64,000 nt of DNA from a virus (lineage: Duplodnaviria > Heunggongvirae > Uroviricota > Caudoviricetes), in the IMG/VR virus record IMGVR_UViG_3300033463_000040, positions 53,319 through 117,318 of that record; one strand, written 5' to 3'. Positions 26,640 to 63,100 of the stretch are shown here, one piece after another. A program made the translations under genes and the position numbers. Every line of letters begins with the position of its first letter. The first letter of the stretch is position 1. The notes under the pieces are model-generated. The model saw only the letters and a list, made by a program, of their open reading frames with translations. It searched no databases and was not told the DNA's origin.

Positions 26640-27831
26640 ATATAAAGGTGTTTTGATTCTCTACGATGGCTCAATAACACCAAAAGCCTCGGCAAATCCT
26701 CGACCATTGGTCAAGGCCCAGAAATATGTTCAGTCGAGCATCACTAGCTGAACTCCGTGATGTTCGGATTGAGGTGTCCAATCAGTAGTTGAAACTTTAC
26801 CCCAAAAACCAAAAATGCATTTCTACATTCTGGCAATCCATACTAGCTAATGCTAATAGGAATTTAAGCGGAGAATGATAGTAAGACCCGGAATTTAGAT
26901 CACTGACTTGTAAGAGTACAAGCTAACCGGCCTATCAAACCCGAAATTAATATACATAAAAGTATATCAACAGTAAACATTTATACTTCCAATTCCACCT
27001 TACTAGAGCTCTTTCAGGTTTCCTATTCTTTCCCTTGGACTTGTTACAGCAAGCTGTATTGTCGAACACCAATACATTCGAGACTATTTCACTCGAAATA
27101 AGTATAAACATTAAAAATGCAGAATTTAGTTGGCCTAACCTAACGAAGTCACACCTGCATTAAACTCCGACTACTATCGACTAGTGACGATCGTTCTGAC
27201 CAGGAACGTTAGTCAAGGGATTTAGCCTACTACTGCAGTCTCAGCTAAATTGAGGGTGGGATTATTGGTTAGGCACTTCCCCTAACACTTCAGCCCAGTG
27301 TGCTGTGTGCTATACTTCACACTACTTACCCAAACTTTATGGCGACTCGTATGGGTACCGCCCCCATCTGATTTCCTGAGTGACAGTCAGGTGAACACAC
27401 TATGCATTCCCACGAGCCAAATATTTTTCTATACTTTTTGAGCTAAGCCCGCAAATAAATTTGGTAGATTCTGTTGCCAAGCTCTACCCAGCTCCGATTG
27501 ATAACTTTATTTAAATCAAGCAGCTATTGCACTTAATTTATAGTTATCGTTCGCTGGTTCATTTATCATGCCAGTCAATTAAATAATCTTTTGTAATTAT
27601 TTAGTAAACTGTATCGGTGATATTGCAATGTCCCTTATGCTTCTTTTGGTCTAGTACCAAATGTTCTATTCGTAATAAACTAAATATCACCAAACTTTAT
27701 GGTGGAGATATCGGTATTGAAACCGAGTCCAGTAAAAATATACTGTCGAATTTAACTCATCCCCTTGTATCTTTACCTAGAGCTGATAACATTACTAAGA
27801 TGTCATAGCAGTTGTTCTAGGATTTCATTTG
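26640..27831. ncRNA. 1.2-kb ORF-free, GC-enriched, hairpin-dense segment between tRNA-Asn and tRNA-Tyr: candidate large structured RNA
   Basis: No ORF above the noise. GC visibly above the ~28% background. Many GC-containing local stems (catcac..gtgatg, gttagg..cctaac, agtgtg..cacact, cctga..tcagg). CCAAACTTTATGG motif twice (27331, 27679). A tRNA-like 3' end at 27690-27725. Confidence 0.3.
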
Positions 27832-28098
27832 TGGTGGGAGAGGTTGGAGTCGAACCAACTCAGTCATAAGACAACAGATTTCATTGCTACATTGTTTTCA
27901 CATTGTAGTCTGGACTTTCTCTTCATCTCAATAAGATGTCTGGTGTAAAGTCTCTACACTCGGATTTCTCCTAGCTCGGGATTAGCATATCATTTAACTT
28001 AGCTTTCCCCGACTTAGCCAAATTTTCACTTATATATTACTATATAAGGCTGCAATTTTTTACAGTCTGCCCCGGCTCTCCGACTCCGGCGCTCGCCC
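27832..28098 (-). tRNA. tRNA-Tyr (GUA) interrupted by a ~180-nt intron; exons 28098..28062 and 27881..27832
   Basis: 5' exon GGGCGAG-CG-CCGGAGTCGGAGAGCCGG-G-GCAGA-CTGT joins to 3' exon AAA-TCTGT-TGTCTTATGACTGA-GTTGGTTCGACTCCAAC-CTCTCCC-A-CCA. The spliced anticodon arm GCAGACTGTAAATCTGT matches the E. coli tRNA-Tyr pattern. The intron core is homologous to the tRNA-Leu intron. Confidence 0.55.
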
Positions 28099-44856: not shown

Positions 44857-45363
44857 TTATTTATGTTCAATGCTAATATTCATTAAAGATGAAAAATTTA
44901 CCTCTTTTAAATTTGTACAATTTTTAAACATATATGCCATGTTAGAATCATTTTCTTTATAATATCCTTCCATTCTTAATAAAATTTCAATACGATCTAA
45001 TTTGTCTTTTGGAAGATTATACATAAAAGATATTTCCCAATTCAATTTATCCGCAGACAATTCTTTTTTAATCATTTCAATAAGATTATTATAGCCTAAG
45101 CCTAATTTTTCTTCTATAAAACTAAACCATTCATGAATACGTGTATCTATCATTTTTAAAACAAAAGGATAATTACCTAAAGTAGCAACAAAATTAAATG
45201 TAATTATACTAGTTTTAGGATCATGTGTAATTTTATCTAATTCATATTTATATGGAATTGGAGTAGTAGGATTATACCACATATCATACAAAGCAGCAAC
45301 AAACTTACTTGTATTTAATAATGGAAAATTTATTCTTAAAAATGTATTACCTTCACTGGCCAT
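44857..45363 (-). CDS. hypothetical protein
   Basis: ORF; a promoter variant (GTTTTAC-N17-TATAAT at 45370-45399) sits so close that the mRNA would be nearly leaderless. Confidence 0.4.
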   Translation of the reverse strand: MASEGNTFLRINFPLLNTSKFVAALYDMWYNPTTPIPYKYELDKITHDPKTSIITFNFVATLGNYPFVLKMIDTRIHEWFSFIEEKLGLGYNNLIEMIKKELSADKLNWEISFMYNLPKDKLDRIEILLRMEGYYKENDSNMAYMFKNCTNLKEVNFSSLMNISIEHK

Positions 45364-45396
45364 ATTTATATTATAACAAATAAATATTAAAAGTAA

Positions 45397-45430
45397 AACA
45401 AAAAAAAAGCTTCTTCAAAAAGAAGAAGCT
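45397..45430 (-). terminator. rho-independent terminator (gcttcttc/gaagaagc plus T-run)
   Basis: Perfect 8-10 bp stem; A12 on plus, so T12 on minus. Confidence 0.6.
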
Positions 45431-45435
45431 TAAAG

Positions 45436-45700
45436 TATAAAAAATAATTACAATTGATGTTAGATAAATGAATTCAATTCCACTAAATAGGAGCGGATTT
45501 TAATATCTATCCAGATATTTAATCCTAAGGAGGTTACCCCTATAGCGATCATTGTTTAACTTTATATATTTTTGCTAGCTTAATATATAAAGCATTCATT
45601 AAATTTATGACTAAAAACAAACTATACAAAGTACAACCGTTTATAGACACATCAGAAAAATGACGAAAACAATAACTTACCGTTTCAACACTTTACTTAT
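45436..45700 (-). ncRNA. candidate ~270-nt sRNA transcribed from the promoter at 45706-45735 to the terminator at 45397-45430
   Basis: Promoter and terminator bracket a segment with no ORF over 30 aa. It contains an extended imperfect hairpin GGATTAAATATC..GATATTAAAATCC. Confidence 0.3.
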
Positions 45701-45705
45701 TATAT

Positions 45706-45735
45706 ATAATAACGTAATTTTTTAAAAAGTAAAGC
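45706..45735 (-). promoter_or_regulatory. conserved promoter GCTTTAC-N17-TATTAT/TATAAT
   Basis: Motif instance with no annotated gene downstream. Confidence 0.45.
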
Positions 45736-45741
45736 AAAAAA

Positions 45742-45957
45742 TTAAAATTTTTTCCGTTTCATAAATCGTTGTAAAATATAGTAAATCATTGGTCCTTCTT
45801 TCCATTCTGATGATACTACATAACCAACTATATTCTTTTTAAATAATCTAGAAGCTGGTTCATATAACTTACAATTAAGTTTTTCTGCTTTTTTCATTAA
45901 TCTATCATGACGACAATCTTTAAAATAATCGCATATCCCTAAAATAATTCTTTTCAT
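45742..45957 (-). CDS. hypothetical protein
   Basis: ORF. Confidence 0.4.
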   Translation of the reverse strand: MKRIILGICDYFKDCRHDRLMKKAEKLNCKLYEPASRLFKKNIVGYVVSSEWKEGPMIYYILQRFMKRKKF

Positions 45958-45960
45958 AAT

Positions 45961-46638
45961 TTACTCCTTATTTTTTTCAAATAATTCTTCACAATATTCT
46001 ACTAAATCATCATAACCTGATTGATTTAAAGATTCCAAATACTTAGTTATACCTGAAAGCATAGCATCATTTTCCATTGTTTGCTTTATTACATCTACAA
46101 CTTCTTGTTTAGGTGTATTTTTTGTTATGATTTTATCATCACATAATAAACATAATGAAATAACTCCATTAAAAGCTGTCTTTACTTTATTTAAATTAAA
46201 GAATTTTTTTGTATTTTTTTCAAAATTAATTGAATTATAATCTATATTTTGTTTGTCTTCATTCAGTAAAGAAAGCATATACCAAATAATTATACTTGAT
46301 AAACTTTCAATTCTACGTACTATAAAAGCTTTTTTGTTTATTTCTCTATATAAGACTAAACTTTCTAAATAAGATAACCAAATATTAATAATTAATTTAT
46401 CCCCATCTTTTTCTGCTGAAAAAAGAGTATCTTCATTACCTTTACCTAAACGTAAAGCTAATACAAAATGTACATCTTCTTTAATTCCCCAATTAATTCT
46501 ATATGCATTACCATTTAGCATTTCTTCATATGCTTGCTTATAATATTCAGATTCGATATCACGTATTAGATGCCTATGTAAAAGTTGAAATAATATACCA
46601 ACTTTTAATGTATTAGTAATCTCTTTTTCAAATTTCAT
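45961..46638 (-). CDS. hypothetical protein
   Basis: ORF; conserved promoter upstream (46664-46694). Confidence 0.45.
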   Translation of the reverse strand: MKFEKEITNTLKVGILFQLLHRHLIRDIESEYYKQAYEEMLNGNAYRINWGIKEDVHFVLALRLGKGNEDTLFSAEKDGDKLIINIWLSYLESLVLYREINKKAFIVRRIESLSSIIIWYMLSLLNEDKQNIDYNSINFEKNTKKFFNLNKVKTAFNGVISLCLLCDDKIITKNTPKQEVVDVIKQTMENDAMLSGITKYLESLNQSGYDDLVEYCEELFEKNKE

Positions 46639-46792: not shown

Positions 46793-47293
46793 ATGTTAAA
46801 AGAGACTACTGCCCTCGATTTCTGGGCATTTCGTGAAGATTATGATATTGATAATGTCATATCTGTTTGTAAAGAACAATTTTGTGAAAACTTCATAAAA
46901 ATTTTCCATCAACGTAAACAAGATTCAGAAAAATATCCAGTTAATTTATCTTGCTTAGATAATTATACTGTATTTCGTAATATGTATAATACACACAAGA
47001 ATATTACATTTAATACTAAAAATTTAATGTTTGAAACTTGTGTAACAGATTTATGGGATAGATTTGTAACTTATCTGGAAAGACAAAAGGATAAAAGAGG
47101 AGCACAAGATCCTTATATGGAAGAACAATTGGTAATGAATGGACAATTAGATAAAGTTGCTGTTGATCAAATTACTTTATATGATAAAGCAGACTATCAT
47201 GCTTTCTTTGGATCTGGTGAATTTCCATTTATGAATTTTACTGTAATAAGAGTAGGAACTAAAGAGTATTCTTTCTGGGATATAGTAAGATAA
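46793..47293 (+). CDS. hypothetical protein (one of few plus-strand genes)
   Basis: ORF followed by a bidirectional terminator. Confidence 0.45.
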   Translation: MLKETTALDFWAFREDYDIDNVISVCKEQFCENFIKIFHQRKQDSEKYPVNLSCLDNYTVFRNMYNTHKNITFNTKNLMFETCVTDLWDRFVTYLERQKDKRGAQDPYMEEQLVMNGQLDKVAVDQITLYDKADYHAFFGSGEFPFMNFTVIRVGTKEYSFWDIVR

Positions 47294-47295
47294 AA

Positions 47296-47330
47296 GAAAA
47301 AGGCCTTTAATTAGGCCTTTAATTTTTTTG
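47296..47330. terminator. bidirectional rho-independent terminator (aaggcct/aggcctt, T-runs on both strands)
   Basis: Lies between convergent genes. Confidence 0.6.
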
Positions 47331-55977: not shown

Positions 55978-57519
55978 ATGTCAATTTTAAAAACAATCGA
56001 AAAACAAGGTTTGACAGAAGCTAAACGCAATGTCAAAATGAACCGCGGTATCGCACACGCAGCTCAATTCTTAGCAGAATCTAACTTAGGTGTTCGTTGC
56101 CCAAATTTGGTTAAAGGTTTAGAATCTGATTCCAAAGAAGCTAAATATGCAGCAGCTACATTAGTCCAAATCATGGAAAATACAGCTGACTACGTTATGA
56201 AAACAGACGGCAAAGATATCTTACATGAAGATGCTATCAACGCTACAGCTAACACAATGTTAACACCAGGCGTCTCAACTTTGACTCCACAAGTATTGGA
56301 TATCGTTAATATATTTTATCCAATGATGGTTGCAAATTATATTGCAGACATTCAAGCTATGGATCGTCAATCTGGCCAAATCTTTACAATTAAGACACGT
56401 TACAGCCAGACAGCAGCAGACGTAGCAGAAGGTGATATTGTATTCGAAAAAGCAACTGACGGTACATATTCTACTGAAGGTGTTATTTCTTATACAGCAG
56501 CTACAACAGCAGCAGGTGCAGCTACATTGAATCCAACAGCAGCATTAGAAGCAAACACAACAGTAAAAGTACGTGCAGGTTCATTTATCGTTACAGTTGA
56601 TGGTAAAGAAGTTGCTCGTGATTACGGTTTAGACACATCTTTGGATGGTGTTGGTGGTACATATGTAGTTATCGGTAAGGGCGTATCTGGTACAGTTGAT
56701 GCACAAACAGGTGTTGCAACTTTGAAATTGGATACAGCTGTTATTGCTGATGGTACAGTATTGAATGCTACAGCTTCTTATGATACAGAACACGATGAAG
56801 ATTTGATTCGTAAGATTCAATTCGATATTCCTAACCAACCAATCTTGGCTAAGGAACACCCATTGATGAGTTCATATTCTGTTGCTGCAGGTTTAGTCAT
56901 GAACGCTCACTTAGCAATTGATACAGATGAATTGATCACAAATCAATTAGCTGGTACAATTCGTTGGGAACGTGACTTGGCATTAGTTAAAGCAGTATCT
57001 GATGCTGCAGTTGCTAATCCATCTTTGACTTTTGACTGCTCAGCTAACGGTACTAACTTGACATTGGCACAACGTTATAGTTCATATACAACAACTATTT
57101 CTTCTGCTCGTGGTATTATCCAAGAAACAGCAGGTCGTGGAACTGTTGACTTTATCATCTGTTCTGCTACTCAAGGTTTGCCAATTATCGAACAAATCGA
57201 AGGCTTTAAAGCTGCTCCAGAAGCTAAGAAACCAATTGGTCCATATTTAGCAGGTACATTGCGTGATGGTACAATCAACGTAATTGCAGTTCCTTATACA
57301 AAAACATTGGCAGCTGATCAAGTTGTCTTTGGTTTCAAGGGCTTCCAATTAGGTGATTCTGCAATCATCTTAGCTGAATGGGTTGCTTTGTATTTGACAC
57401 CAACATTCCAAGCTCCAAACTTACGTAACCACAAAGGTTGCTTGAGTTTCTACGACTTATTTGTAAATAAGCCAGAATACTTGGTTAAAGGTGCTATTTC
57501 TAACTTCAACGTTGCTTAA
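55978..57519 (+). CDS. putative major capsid protein (513 aa)
   Basis: Plus-strand gene; codon usage strongly skewed to GGT/GCT/ACA/GTT-type codons, unlike its neighbours; Ala/Thr/Gly/Val-rich; followed by a strong terminator. Confidence 0.45.
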   Translation: MSILKTIEKQGLTEAKRNVKMNRGIAHAAQFLAESNLGVRCPNLVKGLESDSKEAKYAAATLVQIMENTADYVMKTDGKDILHEDAINATANTMLTPGVSTLTPQVLDIVNIFYPMMVANYIADIQAMDRQSGQIFTIKTRYSQTAADVAEGDIVFEKATDGTYSTEGVISYTAATTAAGAATLNPTAALEANTTVKVRAGSFIVTVDGKEVARDYGLDTSLDGVGGTYVVIGKGVSGTVDAQTGVATLKLDTAVIADGTVLNATASYDTEHDEDLIRKIQFDIPNQPILAKEHPLMSSYSVAAGLVMNAHLAIDTDELITNQLAGTIRWERDLALVKAVSDAAVANPSLTFDCSANGTNLTLAQRYSSYTTTISSARGIIQETAGRGTVDFIICSATQGLPIIEQIEGFKAAPEAKKPIGPYLAGTLRDGTINVIAVPYTKTLAADQVVFGFKGFQLGDSAIILAEWVALYLTPTFQAPNLRNHKGCLSFYDLFVNKPEYLVKGAISNFNVA

Positions 57520-57546
57520 TTAAGTAATTAGTTAGAAAACCTATCA

Positions 57547-57578
57547 AACCCCTGTCTTCGGATGGGGGTTTCTTATTA
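57547..57578 (+). terminator. rho-independent terminator: 8-bp stem with UUCG tetraloop, then UUUCUUAUU
   Basis: ccccugUC-uucg-GAuggggg then a U-tract, read directly. Confidence 0.65.
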
Positions 57579-57611
57579 CTATTTAAAAGGTATAGTTAAT
57601 GAAAGTAAATA

Positions 57612-57640
57612 AAAACCCCTTCTCTATAAAAAGAAGGGAT
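57612..57640 (-). terminator. minus-strand terminator (cccttct/agaaggg plus T5) that stops antisense read-through into the capsid gene
   Basis: Hairpin with the A-run on plus, so a T-run on minus. Confidence 0.45.
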
Positions 57641-57995
57641 TAACCTTAAAAACATCACGTATGTTAGGAGTCTAATGTTATTAAGAATGTTAGGAATATA
57701 TATAGAACAGGAGGAGAGAGAGAATTGGAAAGGAAGGACCCGTTACTATATATACTCCTAGCGGAGATTATATACAAGTATTATTACAAAGGGGAACTCT
57801 GACAACATTTACTTGTATATATGGCGTTCAACAGAAATATATTACTTATTTTGCTTGAAAGGACTTTCGCAGAAACCTATATATTTCCATCTATGTTTTT
57901 GAACATATTTATATTATACGCATTCCTATATAAAAGTAAATGATTAATTTTCCAATTCTGATAAAAAAGATATCCTATACAAATCATATAGGATA

Positions 57996-58200
57996 TTAGG
58001 TGTGTTTCGCTTGCCAATAACCTCTGTATTTGGTTAATAAGCTATGTATACTATAAAGTGGAAATATATAAATGTAAATAAAAAACCTCCCCTTATAAGG
58101 AAAGTTCTTCTTGGACAAAGCGAAGAAAAGGGAAGGTTTCAAGAGCGTAACAATGGAAAGTCTATACTTAAAATGTCGAATAAAAGTACAAACCATTAAC
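57996..58200 (-). CDS. possible small hydrophobic protein (doubtful)
   Basis: Low-complexity ORF; gains some credit because the promoter at 58216-58245 and the terminator at 57612-57640 bracket it. Confidence 0.2.
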
Positions 58201-58215
58201 ATGATTACAAAATAT

Positions 58216-58245
58216 ATTATAGCATTAAATAAATAAAAGTAAAGC
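58216..58245 (-). promoter_or_regulatory. conserved promoter GCTTTAC-N17-TATAAT
   Basis: Motif instance immediately after a terminator. Confidence 0.5.
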
Positions 58246-58287
58246 AAAAAAAAAGACTTACTTCTCTCCAGTCGGCCGAAGTAAGTG
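58246..58287 (-). terminator. rho-independent terminator (acttacttc/gaagtaagt plus T9)
   Basis: Read directly. Confidence 0.55.
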
Positions 58288-59017
58288 CGTATTATAATCT
58301 AAAACATTAAAACGCCGTCAAGCATTTCTATATAATCTTATAGCATATTTGTACAAATGTAAATAAGTAATTTTCCAATTCTATTTATATACTATTTAAA
58401 TCATATAGTTTATCAAATAATAAAGGGGCTTGGTCTAAACTCCTTCCGGAAAGAAATATATTTATTTATCCTTTTTTCGTATTATATTTCCATTTCTGTT
58501 AATATATTTACTACTTCTTTATATTTCTTCATAGGTTACTCTTCACTATGATCAGCCAGAACAGTTACTGGATTAATTCTTATTATAGATATGTATAGAT
58601 AAGAATAAAATTTGCTATATATAAATTGTCATATCCTTTATATATAGTTGAAAGATATACTTCTTTCCCCCGGATATTTGGTTTATCGCAAGCCCCCAGA
58701 AGGATCATCCGCACATTGCCGGGCGTTTTGGAGTCACTACTTCGGTGTATTACTTTTGTAAGGTCTATTGTAGGTCCAATTAATAGAACACATGATTTAA
58801 TATAAAGATTATAAAAAAATTATTATAATTGGAAATTTTCTTGAATGAGGGAGAATACACACTAAATAATACTAAGGAAAGGTATGAATGGTTGATAAAA
58901 AATATCCTTAGTACTATCTAGCGTGGTGTGATAATAGATAATAACAAAAGGAAAATTTAAATGCTAGTTAAATCTATTATCTAATTATATTATATGTTGA
59001 TCTGTTTAAAAAGTAAA

Positions 59018-60879: not shown

Positions 60880-61182
60880 TTATAACTCTAATCTATCTTC
60901 TAATCCGTTTATACCATGCTTAATTGTATAATATAATTCAAATAACTGGTTCATCTGGTCCATACAACCATTCCAATGTGTAACGATATTCCTTGCACAA
61001 TCGAATAATGCCATACGTTGTGGTACTACCATATCAGCCCAATGTCTATAATCTTTGAAATATCCAAACATTTTGCAGCATTCTTCTGGTGTCATGTTAA
61101 TACCTTTATGTTCTTTTAACCACCTACTAAAGGTTTCACATTCACTATATTCTGCTAATACTTCTTTAACAGGATCTGTCAT
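60880..61182 (-). CDS. hypothetical protein
   Basis: ORF. Confidence 0.4.
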   Translation of the reverse strand: MTDPVKEVLAEYSECETFSRWLKEHKGINMTPEECCKMFGYFKDYRHWADMVVPQRMALFDCARNIVTHWNGCMDQMNQLFELYYTIKHGINGLEDRLEL

Positions 61183-62662: not shown

Positions 62663-63100
62663 TTATACTCCTTTATATTTACAGTTTGTATTAACTTTAA
62701 ATGGTTTATTTATATCTATTTCTTCAATATCAAATACCGTTATTTTAGATATACCTATTTTAATGAAATAAATATCTTCTTTACTTAGTTTAATGCTAAC
62801 TTTACTATATTTATTTTTTAATGCTAGTTTATAAGTTCTTGCATAAATGTATTTACTGGTTTTACCTATTGTTGCTTTTTCTTTAATAAAAGTCATAATA
62901 ACAGGTTGTACTATTAATTTACTATTTTCTTTATCTACATCTATAATTTTATACTTAACTAAACGACAATCTGCATTTGATGGATAAACTATAATATATT
63001 TGTTTTTTATATTATTAACAATATCATCTATAAACAATACTCTATCTTTAGTAAAGCCATAAGACAAATATTCACCAATTGATACATACTCACGATCCAT
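62663..63100 (-). CDS. hypothetical protein
   Basis: ORF. Confidence 0.4.
   Translation of the reverse strand: MDREYVSIGEYLSYGFTKDRVLFIDDIVNNIKNKYIIVYPSNADCRLVKYKIIDVDKENSKLIVQPVIMTFIKEKATIGKTSKYIYARTYKLALKNKYSKVSIKLSKEDIYFIKIGISKITVFDIEEIDINKPFKVNTNCKYKGV

What the first reader, a model, noticed from the sequence alone, without database searches (positions are those of the whole stretch)
45397..45735. Promoter-to-terminator unit with no ORF: candidate ~270-nt phage sRNA
The conserved promoter at 45706-45735 fires leftward into 45436-45700. That segment has no ORF above ~30 aa and ends at a perfect 8-10 bp GC hairpin followed by T12 (45397-45430). It contains an extended imperfect hairpin (GGATTAAATATC...GATATTAAAATCC). 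Immediately downstream a second promoter (GTTTTAC variant, 45370-45399) restarts transcription for gene 44857-45363 so close to the ATG that the mRNA would be nearly leaderless. A stand-alone, strongly terminated non-coding transcript inside a tight gene array is a good regulatory-RNA candidate.
Basis: seen in the sequence. Interest (0 to 1): 0.6.

Follow-up and report, generated by a model that had tools for sequence, protein, structure and literature searches.

The report
New structured small RNA in rumen phage
The gene-free stretch is a real, evolutionarily conserved small RNA gene of a T4-like rumen phage, with its own promoter and terminator and a folded core that displays a sequence complementary to ribosome-binding sites; it matches no known RNA family and its function is untested.

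Summary
On the minus strand a member of the phage's GCTTTAC/TATAAT promoter family (45737-45699) is followed by about 300 nt with no ORF longer than 33 aa, a 10-bp hairpin plus T9 (45431-45398), then a second promoter whose gene (ATG 45363) would be leaderless.

The new evidence is comparative. The same promoter-RNA-terminator unit occurs in at least five diverged lineages of related rumen phage contigs. Their 5' arms, terminator stems and downstream genes all differ.

A 134-nt core (45600-45467) folds into a three-way junction. In nine distinct sequences 98.8% of cells pair, 9 of 28 pairs show compensatory changes, and no shuffle out of 500 reaches this. Invariant G-U pairs fix the strand. 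The mini-ORFs are not conserved in frame or length.

An unpaired internal loop always carries CUCCUU, the complement of the phage's AAGGAG Shine-Dalgarno consensus.

Nothing matched in Rfam 15 or in the INPHARED collection of GenBank phage records.

Best reading: an independently transcribed structured sRNA of a new family. Its mechanism is not established; pairing with Shine-Dalgarno sequences is the leading guess. A cis-acting leader or attenuator role is the main rival.

The parts
45699..45737 (-). Promoter of the RNA unit: TTGCTTTAC (45737-45729), -10 TATTAT (45711-45706) or TATAAT (45704-45699); predicted start about 45699-45691
   Evidence: The same promoter sits upstream of every homologous unit.
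45601..45698 (-). 5' arm of the RNA, variable in length and sequence. From the predicted start to the conserved GUUAAAC motif it spans 139 nt here and 53-93 nt in homologs.
45467..45600 (-). Conserved core domain, a three-way junction. P1 45600-45594 / 45473-45467. P2 hairpin 45593-45559. J2/3 UAAA 45558-45555. P3 45554-45551 / 45478-45475. GA bulge 45550-45549. P4 45548-45544 / 45484-45480. P5 45543-45537 / 45493-45487.
   Evidence: RNAalifold on 9 sequences. Pair counts: 98.8% paired, 9 of 28 pairs compensatory, 0/500 shuffles. Covariance model hit of 122 bits at 45463-45603, the only copy in the window. The single-sequence minimum-energy fold reproduces the structure.
45526..45536 (-). Unpaired 5'-side internal loop UAACCUCCUUA. 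CUCCUU (45532-45527) is invariant in all homologs and is the complement of the AAGGAG Shine-Dalgarno consensus.
45495..45525 (-). Every homolog has a hairpin here, in three unrelated sequence versions.
45432..45466 (-). Variable 3' linker between the core and the terminator
45398..45431 (-). Intrinsic terminator: 10-bp stem (45431-45407), 5-nt loop, then T9
   Evidence: All homologs have a hairpin plus T run at this place, with four different stem sequences.
45363..45399 (-). Next promoter (GTTTTAC 45399-45393, TATAAT 45375-45370) and the ATG of gene 44857-45363, predicted leaderless. Not part of the RNA, but marks the end of the unit.
   Evidence: GTTTTAC follows the terminator in L002, L006, L016, L021 and L023, but not in L004, L010 or L019.

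Best explanation
This is an independent gene for a structured small RNA of about 240-300 nt, from a family absent from Rfam 15. It belongs to a distant T4-like, AT-rich phage from ruminant gut metagenomes.

Inferred expression: a sigma-70/sigmaA-type promoter of the phage's GCTTTAC family starts transcription, presumably using host RNA polymerase early in infection. An intrinsic terminator ends it.

Shown by comparison: the functional part is a 134-nt three-way-junction core. P1 closes the domain, P2 is a hairpin, and P3-P4-P5-P6 form a long arm. The junction sequence is nearly invariant. An approximately 11-nt unpaired loop presents CUCCUU.

Inferred mechanism (about 0.3 on its own): the RNA acts in trans. 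The CUCCUU loop pairs with AAGGAG-type Shine-Dalgarno regions of host or phage mRNAs to block translation initiation. The invariant junction serves as a protein-binding or tertiary-structure site. P5 could alternate with a local AGGGG/CUCCU hairpin that hides the loop.
For: - Unit architecture is conserved in eight units from at least five diverged lineages: window, L002/L022/L023, L004/L010/L019, L006/L021 and L016. All have the promoter, 237-300 nt of RNA, and a hairpin plus T run with four different stems.
- Covariation: 98.8% of 250 cells pair and 9 of 28 pairs have changes on both sides. No shuffle out of 500 reaches this, and slid controls pair only 34-54%.
- Three invariant G-U/U-G pairs exist only on the minus-strand transcript.
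- The consensus fold is the minimum-energy fold, or within 0.2 kcal/mol of it, in 8 of 9 sequences.
- Mini-ORFs range from 11 to 36 aa. The conserved 3' block is read in different frames, because spacings of 61, 66, 70 and 74 nt are not multiples of three. The ATG lies inside helix P3 and has no Shine-Dalgarno sequence.
- Downstream genes differ among loci, and the window has two extra genes inserted upstream.
- CUCCUU is invariant and unpaired. CTCCTT occurs 4 times on the sense strand of the window against 35 times on the other strand, where it is the complement of AAGGAG read on the sense strand. Thirty-eight AGGAG-plus-ATG contexts occur on the minus strand.
- No Rfam match at the region or in the homologs. 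No match among the GenBank phage records of INPHARED.
Against: - No expression data exist. The promoter, start site and termination are predictions.
- The alignment has only nine distinct sequences from one phage clade, so several compensatory changes may share ancestry.
- The anti-Shine-Dalgarno mechanism is a guess from a 6-nt motif. The phage's own genes use the same AAGGAG, so a generic blocker would hit them too.
- No specific target was found, and the test for seed-target flank covariation was inconclusive.
- In L006 and L016 the predicted ensemble mostly pairs CUCCUU with AGGGG.
- In L004, L010 and L019 no promoter separates the terminator from the next ATG. That fits a leader role in this lineage.
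- Two relatives (L017, L018) lack the unit, so it is dispensable.
Confidence: 0.75

Rival explanations
1. Cis-acting leader, attenuator or antitermination element. The structured RNA and its terminator would control read-through into the downstream gene(s). Models are the lambda pR'-tR' unit, whose terminated product is the 194-nt '6S' RNA unless the Q antiterminator acts, or a put-like or riboswitch-like element.
For: - The unit always lies directly upstream of a gene on the same strand.
- In L004, L010 and L019 there is no recognisable promoter between the terminator and the next ATG, and that terminator has a large 19-21-nt loop.
- P5 has a competing local hairpin, so two conformations are possible.
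Against: - Downstream genes are unrelated between loci.
- Five of eight units have a full GTTTTAC/TATAAT promoter right after the terminator, and in the window the next mRNA would start at its ATG.
- The linker and terminator are not conserved. I saw no conserved antiterminator pairing that overlaps the core, but I did not search for one systematically.
- No riboswitch or leader family matched.
Confidence: 0.12
2. The RNA is the partner of the neighbouring divergently transcribed 166-aa protein (46793-47293, plus strand). It would be the RNA component of, or a regulator for, a two-part module such as an RNP or an anti-defence or immunity pair.
For: Apart from the window, every locus recovered with the unit has it immediately next to the start of the 166-aa gene. 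That includes L021, L022 and L023, which were found by RNA pattern alone. That gene is the only plus-strand gene in the neighbourhood and has its own bidirectional terminator.
Against: - Most loci were retrieved through that protein, so adjacency is partly built in.
- In the window two genes separate them.
- L017 and L018 carry the protein without the RNA.
- The protein has no family match apart from a sub-threshold DUF5411 hit (E 0.0012, 19.2 bits against a cut-off of 30), and its structure model is unusable at pLDDT 43.
Confidence: 0.08
3. The stretch encodes a small hydrophobic peptide of the type I toxin or holin-modulator kind, starting at the conserved ATG (45552). The conservation would then reflect coding.
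For: The ATG and the first codons (MIAIG or MIAV) are conserved. Several predicted peptides are hydrophobic. The 33-aa and 30-aa ORFs overlap in ATGA.
Against: - Peptide length ranges from 11 to 36 aa.
- The reading frame across the conserved 3' block differs between homologs.
- There is no Shine-Dalgarno sequence, in a phage where at least 38 genes have AGGAG.
- The start codon is buried in helix P3.
- The substitutions are compensatory base-pair changes, not synonymous changes.
Confidence: 0.03
4. A non-functional spacer, decayed gene, or DNA-level element such as an origin, packaging site or recombination site.
For: The region sits in a mosaic, fast-changing part of the genome, and the unit is missing from two relatives.
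Against: Strand-specific G-U pairs, compensatory changes, a promoter and terminator retained around it, and near-invariant junction nucleotides amid roughly 70% overall identity.
Confidence: 0.02

Closest known systems
Stand-alone phage-encoded small RNAs with their own promoter and intrinsic terminator, such as lambda OOP RNA and the small RNAs mapped by transcriptomics in lytic phages (phiKZ, PMC8244752; Kayvirus, PMC9241854)
   Same: A short promoter-to-terminator unit without an ORF inside a dense phage gene array, predicted to be made by host RNA polymerase.
   Different: No sequence or structure relation was found by Rfam. OOP is a 77-nt antisense RNA (my own knowledge). This RNA is about 300 nt, has a covariation-supported three-way-junction core, and has no gene on the opposite strand.
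Phage T4 small stable RNAs (species 1 and 2, RNA C and D). Named from my own knowledge and not compared here.
   Same: Structured RNAs of about 120-140 nt and unknown function in a T4-type phage. This phage has a Gp23-type capsid gene, a tRNA array and a group I intron.
   Different: The T4 RNAs lie inside the tRNA cluster and are processed from its precursor. This unit is about 19 kb from the tRNA array and has its own promoter and terminator.
Firmicute sRNAs whose C/U-rich loops pair with Shine-Dalgarno sequences, such as S. aureus RNAIII and RsaE/RoxS (my own knowledge)
   Same: An unpaired pyrimidine-rich motif (CUCCUU) complementary to ribosome-binding sites, displayed on a structured scaffold that ends in an intrinsic terminator.
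   Different: The motif sits in an asymmetric internal loop rather than a hairpin loop, there is a single copy, and the RNA is phage-encoded. No target is known, and no Rfam family matched.
Lambda pR'-tR' '6S' transcript and HK022 put RNAs, which are antitermination units (my own knowledge)
   Same: A promoter, a short non-coding structured transcript and a strong terminator directly ahead of genes.
   Different: Most units here have a fresh promoter after the terminator, and the downstream genes vary. No Q-like or put-like features were identified.

Membership tests
Any Rfam 15 family | Score at or near the family's gathering threshold against its covariance model | tested here: not met
   Nothing at 45397-45735 in the whole-window scan. 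The best sub-threshold hits are 17.8 bits against a threshold of 50, and 16.6 against 41, and they fall on the 5' arm and the terminator only. No hit on the homologous units in five other loci.
Independent trans-acting sRNA gene | Own promoter and Rho-independent terminator, conserved as a unit | tested here: met
   Consensus matches. The promoter family is enriched. All eight homologous units keep the promoter and a hairpin plus T run, with different stems. These are predictions, not mapped RNA ends.
Independent trans-acting sRNA gene | No conserved ORF; conservation explained by RNA structure | tested here: met
Independent trans-acting sRNA gene | Detectable discrete transcript | not testable with these tools
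   No transcriptome data were available.
Independent trans-acting sRNA gene | Seed region with identifiable, co-varying target sites | tested here: inconclusive
   The CUCCUU loop complements the generic AAGGAG. The 9-nt matches AGGAGGTTA occur at the starts of genes 60880-61182 and 62663-63100. The flanks show no clear seed-target covariation between the window and L002/L003.
Riboswitch or cis-regulatory leader | Same class of gene downstream, and no promoter between the element and the gene | tested here: not met
   Downstream genes are unrelated. A GTTTTAC promoter follows the terminator in five of eight units. The feature is met only in the L004/L010/L019 lineage.
Riboswitch or cis-regulatory leader | Expression platform, meaning a terminator/antiterminator pair, coupled to the conserved domain | tested here: inconclusive
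   The linker of 35-60 nt and the terminator stems are not conserved. No conserved antiterminator pairing was seen by inspection. There was no systematic test.
Type I toxin-antitoxin or small-protein gene | ORF conserved in frame and length, with a ribosome-binding site | tested here: not met
   Peptides of 11-36 aa, frame shifts between homologs, no Shine-Dalgarno sequence, and the ATG inside helix P3.
Type III toxin-antitoxin (ToxIN-like) with the 166-aa neighbour | Tandem direct repeats of the antitoxin RNA upstream of the toxin gene on the same strand | tested here: not met
   No repeat family other than the shared promoter motif (D15) overlaps 45397-45735. The neighbouring gene is on the opposite strand.
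tRNA / tmRNA | Cloverleaf or tRNA-like domain detected by ARAGORN or Rfam | tested here: not met
   The GGAGUYGAAUC resemblance to a T-arm is explained by the P3' and P1' strands, which covary with distant partners.
6S RNA | Long rod with a central open-promoter-like bubble | tested here: not met
   The fold is a three-way junction with a one-sided internal loop. No Rfam 6S hit.
Mimic of the 16S rRNA 3' end | Similarity to helix 45 plus the 3' tail beyond the anti-Shine-Dalgarno core | tested here: not met
   The only local alignment printed (window against E. coli) is ACCUCCUUA.

The most novel reading that the evidence does not exclude
The RNA is a decoy or competitor built around a copy of the 16S rRNA 3' tail (ACCUCCUUA in the window and L016; CUCCUU in all). 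Expressed early from a strong promoter, it would do one of two things. It could soak up Shine-Dalgarno sequences and so shift translation, for example towards leaderless phage messages such as the gene immediately downstream. Or it could bait a host factor or anti-phage nuclease that recognises the 16S 3' end. The invariant junction would recruit a protein partner.
Probability: 0.08. Interest if true: 0.85.

Novelty: new variant of a known kind. Interest (0 to 1): 0.55.

Why it matters
Few non-coding RNAs of lytic phages have known functions, and I know of none described for phages of the rumen. This locus gives a concrete RNA family with good support:

- It has a defined promoter and terminator, a covariation-backed fold and an invariant junction.
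- It has an exposed anti-Shine-Dalgarno-like loop.
- It can be synthesised, probed and searched for in metatranscriptomes.

If the loop really engages ribosome-binding sites, it would be a phage tool for reshaping translation. If the junction binds a protein or ligand, it is a new RNA motif.

The window also holds several other promoter-to-terminator stretches without genes. This phage may therefore carry several small RNA genes.

Tried and rejected
- **Rfam.** The gathering scan of the window, and permissive scans of the region and of five homolog loci, gave nothing relevant.
- **GenBank phage records (INPHARED).** blastn in 'distant' mode with 1.2 kb around the unit, and tblastn with an 809-aa protein, found no match.
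- **IMG/VR scans with flanking proteins.** The 168-, 225- and 397-aa proteins found no relatives. The 168-aa protein is an orphan in the 5.8-billion-protein search. Only the 330-aa protein led to a relative.
- **Exact DNA patterns in IMG/VR.** Both patterns found only that same contig.
- **Stop-codon reassignment.** Reading the gap with alternative stop codons gives no long ORF in any frame. Stop usage in the window is normal and the tRNA-Trp anticodon is CCA.
- **Paralogs.** The covariance model finds a single copy in the window.
- **Extended 16S 3'-end mimicry.** Not significant beyond ACCUCCUUA.
- **Specific targets by loop complementarity and seed-target covariation.** Inconclusive.
- **Function of neighbouring proteins.** Pfam and PHROGs gave nothing for the immediate neighbours. 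The AlphaFold model of the 166-aa neighbour has pLDDT 43 and is unusable, so no fold search was run.
- **Known RNA motifs considered by eye and dropped.** For hammerhead, K-turn, T-box and T-arm resemblances, the junction strand lengths and sequences do not fit, and the T-arm-like bases covary with distant partners.
- **Literature.** Searches for a phage RNA with an anti-Shine-Dalgarno loop found nothing relevant.

Full report
**What the window is.** The window comes from a large AT-rich phage genome (24-39% GC in 2-kb bins, about 25% around the finding).
- Its proteins occur on a 117-kb JGI contig and on a 99.98%-identical Logan contig.
- Almost all genes are on the minus strand.
- It has 14-15 tRNA genes at 21.8-26.6 kb, a Gp23-type major capsid gene, a fused polynucleotide kinase/phosphatase/RNA ligase and a sigma-region-4 protein.
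- It is therefore a distant T4-like phage. It has no relative among the GenBank phage records of INPHARED.

**Checking the observation.** Read on the minus strand, the region has these parts:
- TTGCTTTAC at 45737-45729.
- A -10 element, either TATTAT at 45711-45706 or TATAAT at 45704-45699.
- About 300 nt with no ORF above 33 aa.
- A perfect 10-bp hairpin at 45431-45407, followed by T9.
- GTTTTAC at 45399-45393 and TATAAT at 45375-45370, with the ATG of gene 44857-45363 six bases later.

The promoter motif is a real family. There are 22 matches with up to 3 mismatches against 7.1 expected. Thirteen well-placed copies lie ahead of minus-strand genes between 28.7 and 58.3 kb. The stretch folds better than all shuffles: z = -3.8 for the whole and -3.56 for the core.

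**Finding relatives.**
- The immediate neighbours are orphans.
- The 330-aa protein two genes downstream led to an IMG/VR contig, L002. It is 80-93% identical to the window in patches but has different genes in this interval.
- L002 contains a unit with the same promoter, a recognisably homologous middle part, a different terminator hairpin and the same GTTTTAC promoter after it.
- In L002 the unit abuts the start of a divergently transcribed 166-aa gene, which in the window lies two genes away (46793-47293).
- Searching that protein gave seven clusters. Their contigs supplied four more versions of the unit.
- A degenerate DNA pattern found three further loci. One lies in a 245-kb contig binned as a 'Bacilli bacterium' MAG from water-buffalo rumen. 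The fetched stretch of that contig is phage-like and mosaic with the window.
- Two relatives, L017 and L018, have the 166-aa gene but no unit.

**The structure.** Nine distinct core sequences from about five lineages were aligned with MAFFT and folded with RNAalifold. The consensus in window coordinates, on the minus strand, is:
- P1: 45600-45594 with 45473-45467.
- P2: hairpin at 45593-45559.
- J2/3: UAAA at 45558-45555.
- P3: CAAU with AUUG.
- A GA bulge.
- P4: UCGCU with AGUGG.
- A UU bulge.
- P5: AUAGGGG with CUCCUAU.
- An 11-nt loop on the 5' side only, UAACCUCCUUA.

On the MAFFT alignment, which was not fitted to any structure:
- 98.8% of cells form standard pairs.
- 9 of 28 pairs change on both sides.
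- None of 500 column shuffles reaches the observed values.
- Sliding the partners by 1-3 columns drops pairing to 34-54%.

Other support for the fold:
- Three G-U/U-G pairs are invariant, so the structure exists only in the minus-strand transcript.
- The consensus is the minimum-energy fold, or within 0.2 kcal/mol of it, for 8 of the 9 sequences folded alone.
- P6 exists in every homolog in three unrelated sequence versions.
- A covariance model built from the alignment finds exactly one copy in the window (45463-45603, 122 bits) and one per related locus.

**Is it coding?** No.
- The ATG at 45552 is conserved only because it lies in the invariant CAAUGAUCGC stretch.
- The ORF it opens is 11-36 aa long.
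- The conserved 3' block is read in different frames, because the spacings between conserved blocks (61, 66, 70, 74 nt) are not multiples of three.
- There is no Shine-Dalgarno sequence, although 38 genes in the window have AGGAG before their ATG.
- Reassigning stop codons does not open a long frame either.

**Is it a leader of the next gene?** Mostly no.
- The downstream genes are unrelated between loci.
- The linker and terminator are not conserved.
- Five of eight units have a complete promoter after the terminator.
- In the window that promoter would produce a leaderless mRNA.
- The exception is the L004/L010/L019 lineage. There, no promoter is recognisable and the terminator has a large loop. 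A role in read-through control cannot be excluded there, and it is kept as the main rival.

**How it might work.** Two conserved features stand out.

First, the junction region is nearly invariant: GUUAAAC-R-AUGAUCGC and GUGGA-N-U-Y-GAAU, with their bulges and wobble pairs. The rest of the unit is about 70% identical. This suggests a binding site for a protein or ligand, or a tertiary fold.

Second, the unpaired loop always contains CUCCUU.
- In the window and L016 the loop reads ACCUCCUUA, the 3' tail of 16S rRNA.
- CTCCTT is rare on the sense strand of this phage (4 copies in 64 kb). Its complement AAGGAG is the standard ribosome-binding site (35 copies, most of them just before start codons).
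- The most economical mechanism is pairing with Shine-Dalgarno regions, as in several Firmicute sRNAs (my own knowledge).
- Because the phage's own genes use the same site, either specificity comes from elsewhere or the effect is global.
- No specific target emerged.
- The resemblance to 16S rRNA does not extend beyond the 9-nt tail.
- P5's AGGGG strand can alternatively pair with the loop, and this is the predicted minimum-energy fold in L006 and L016. The loop could therefore be switched between exposed and hidden.

All of this is inference. I give about 0.3 to Shine-Dalgarno pairing, against about 0.75-0.85 that this is a genuine, independently transcribed structured RNA.

**Comparison with known RNAs.**
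- No Rfam 15 family matches the region or its homologs.
- The kind of element is known: stand-alone phage sRNAs (for example PMC8244752 and PMC9241854), T4's small stable RNAs, and the lambda OOP and 6S transcripts.
- The family is not known. I file it as a new variant of a known kind.

**Verdict.** Function remains open. Interest is moderate (0.55): this is a clean new phage RNA motif with an intriguing loop, from uncultured rumen phages and without expression data.

Noticed in passing
window 27889-28072 (-): A group I intron match (RF00028) scores 64.8 bits against a gathering score of 50 in the permissive scan. It was not listed in the whole-window gathering scan. It lies in a 1.4-kb ORF-free stretch richer in G+C than its surroundings (about 39% in the 26-28 kb bin), next to the tRNA array and just upstream of a tRNA-like 3' end (GGTTCGACTCCAACCTCTCCCACCA). 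This may be an intron-containing tRNA gene.
   Followed up: partly
window 27460-27761 (-): Sub-threshold hits to alpha/permuted tmRNA models (36.4 bits against 50, and 22.9 against 47), with further tRNA-like 3' ends carrying an encoded CCA at about 27700 and 27340. This may be a two-piece tmRNA or other tRNA-like RNAs that ARAGORN did not call.
   Followed up: partly
window 39167-39047 (-): A second, shorter unit of the same design. A GCTTTAC promoter is followed by about 85 nt without an ORF, a hairpin plus T run (AAATCACCAGA...TTTGGTGATTTTTT), and then directly the GTTTTAC promoter of the kinase/phosphatase/RNA-ligase gene.
   Followed up: no
window 57520-59017 (-): About 1.5 kb without an ORF of 50 aa or more. 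It holds a GCTTTAC promoter (58245) followed by about 140 nt and a terminator-like hairpin, further ATTTAC-type promoter-like sites with hairpin plus T runs, and a GC-richer patch at 58660-58760. No Rfam match. It may hold several more small RNAs.
   Followed up: partly
window 44857-45363 (-): This gene is predicted to be leaderless, with TATAAT at 45375-45370 and the ATG six bases later. The same TATTAT-ATAAAT arrangement is present at the end of the L006 intergenic region, directly before the next called gene. Its C-terminus shares a repeat (NCTNLKEVNF-type, leucine-rich-repeat-like) with the large ORFs at 2-19 kb.
   Followed up: no
window 46793-47293 (+) and 47299-47320: This is the only plus-strand gene in the neighbourhood. 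It encodes 166 aa with no family above threshold (only a sub-threshold DUF5411 hit) and is followed by a bidirectional terminator. It is 69-96% identical in the seven related protein clusters found. Outside the window, every related locus that carries the RNA unit has it directly beside this gene's start. The structure prediction failed with pLDDT 43.
   Followed up: partly
window, whole; L002 7479-9943 compared with window 46656-44851: The interval around the RNA is mosaic. Relatives are 80-93% identical in flanking blocks but carry different genes between them. The window appears to have two extra genes (45742-46638), with a second copy of the promoter, inserted between the 166-aa gene and the RNA.
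   Followed up: partly
L023 (JAFZWP010000001.1, 245-kb contig of 'Bacilli bacterium RGIG8164', water-buffalo rumen): A contig binned as a bacterial MAG carries phage genes 81-91% identical to the window, and also the RNA unit. It is either an integrated or mis-binned phage, or a hint to the host.
   Followed up: partly
window 55978-57519 (+): The Gp23-type major capsid gene sits on the plus strand, inside a long run of minus-strand small genes and far from the large LRR-repeat ORFs at 2-20 kb.
   Followed up: no
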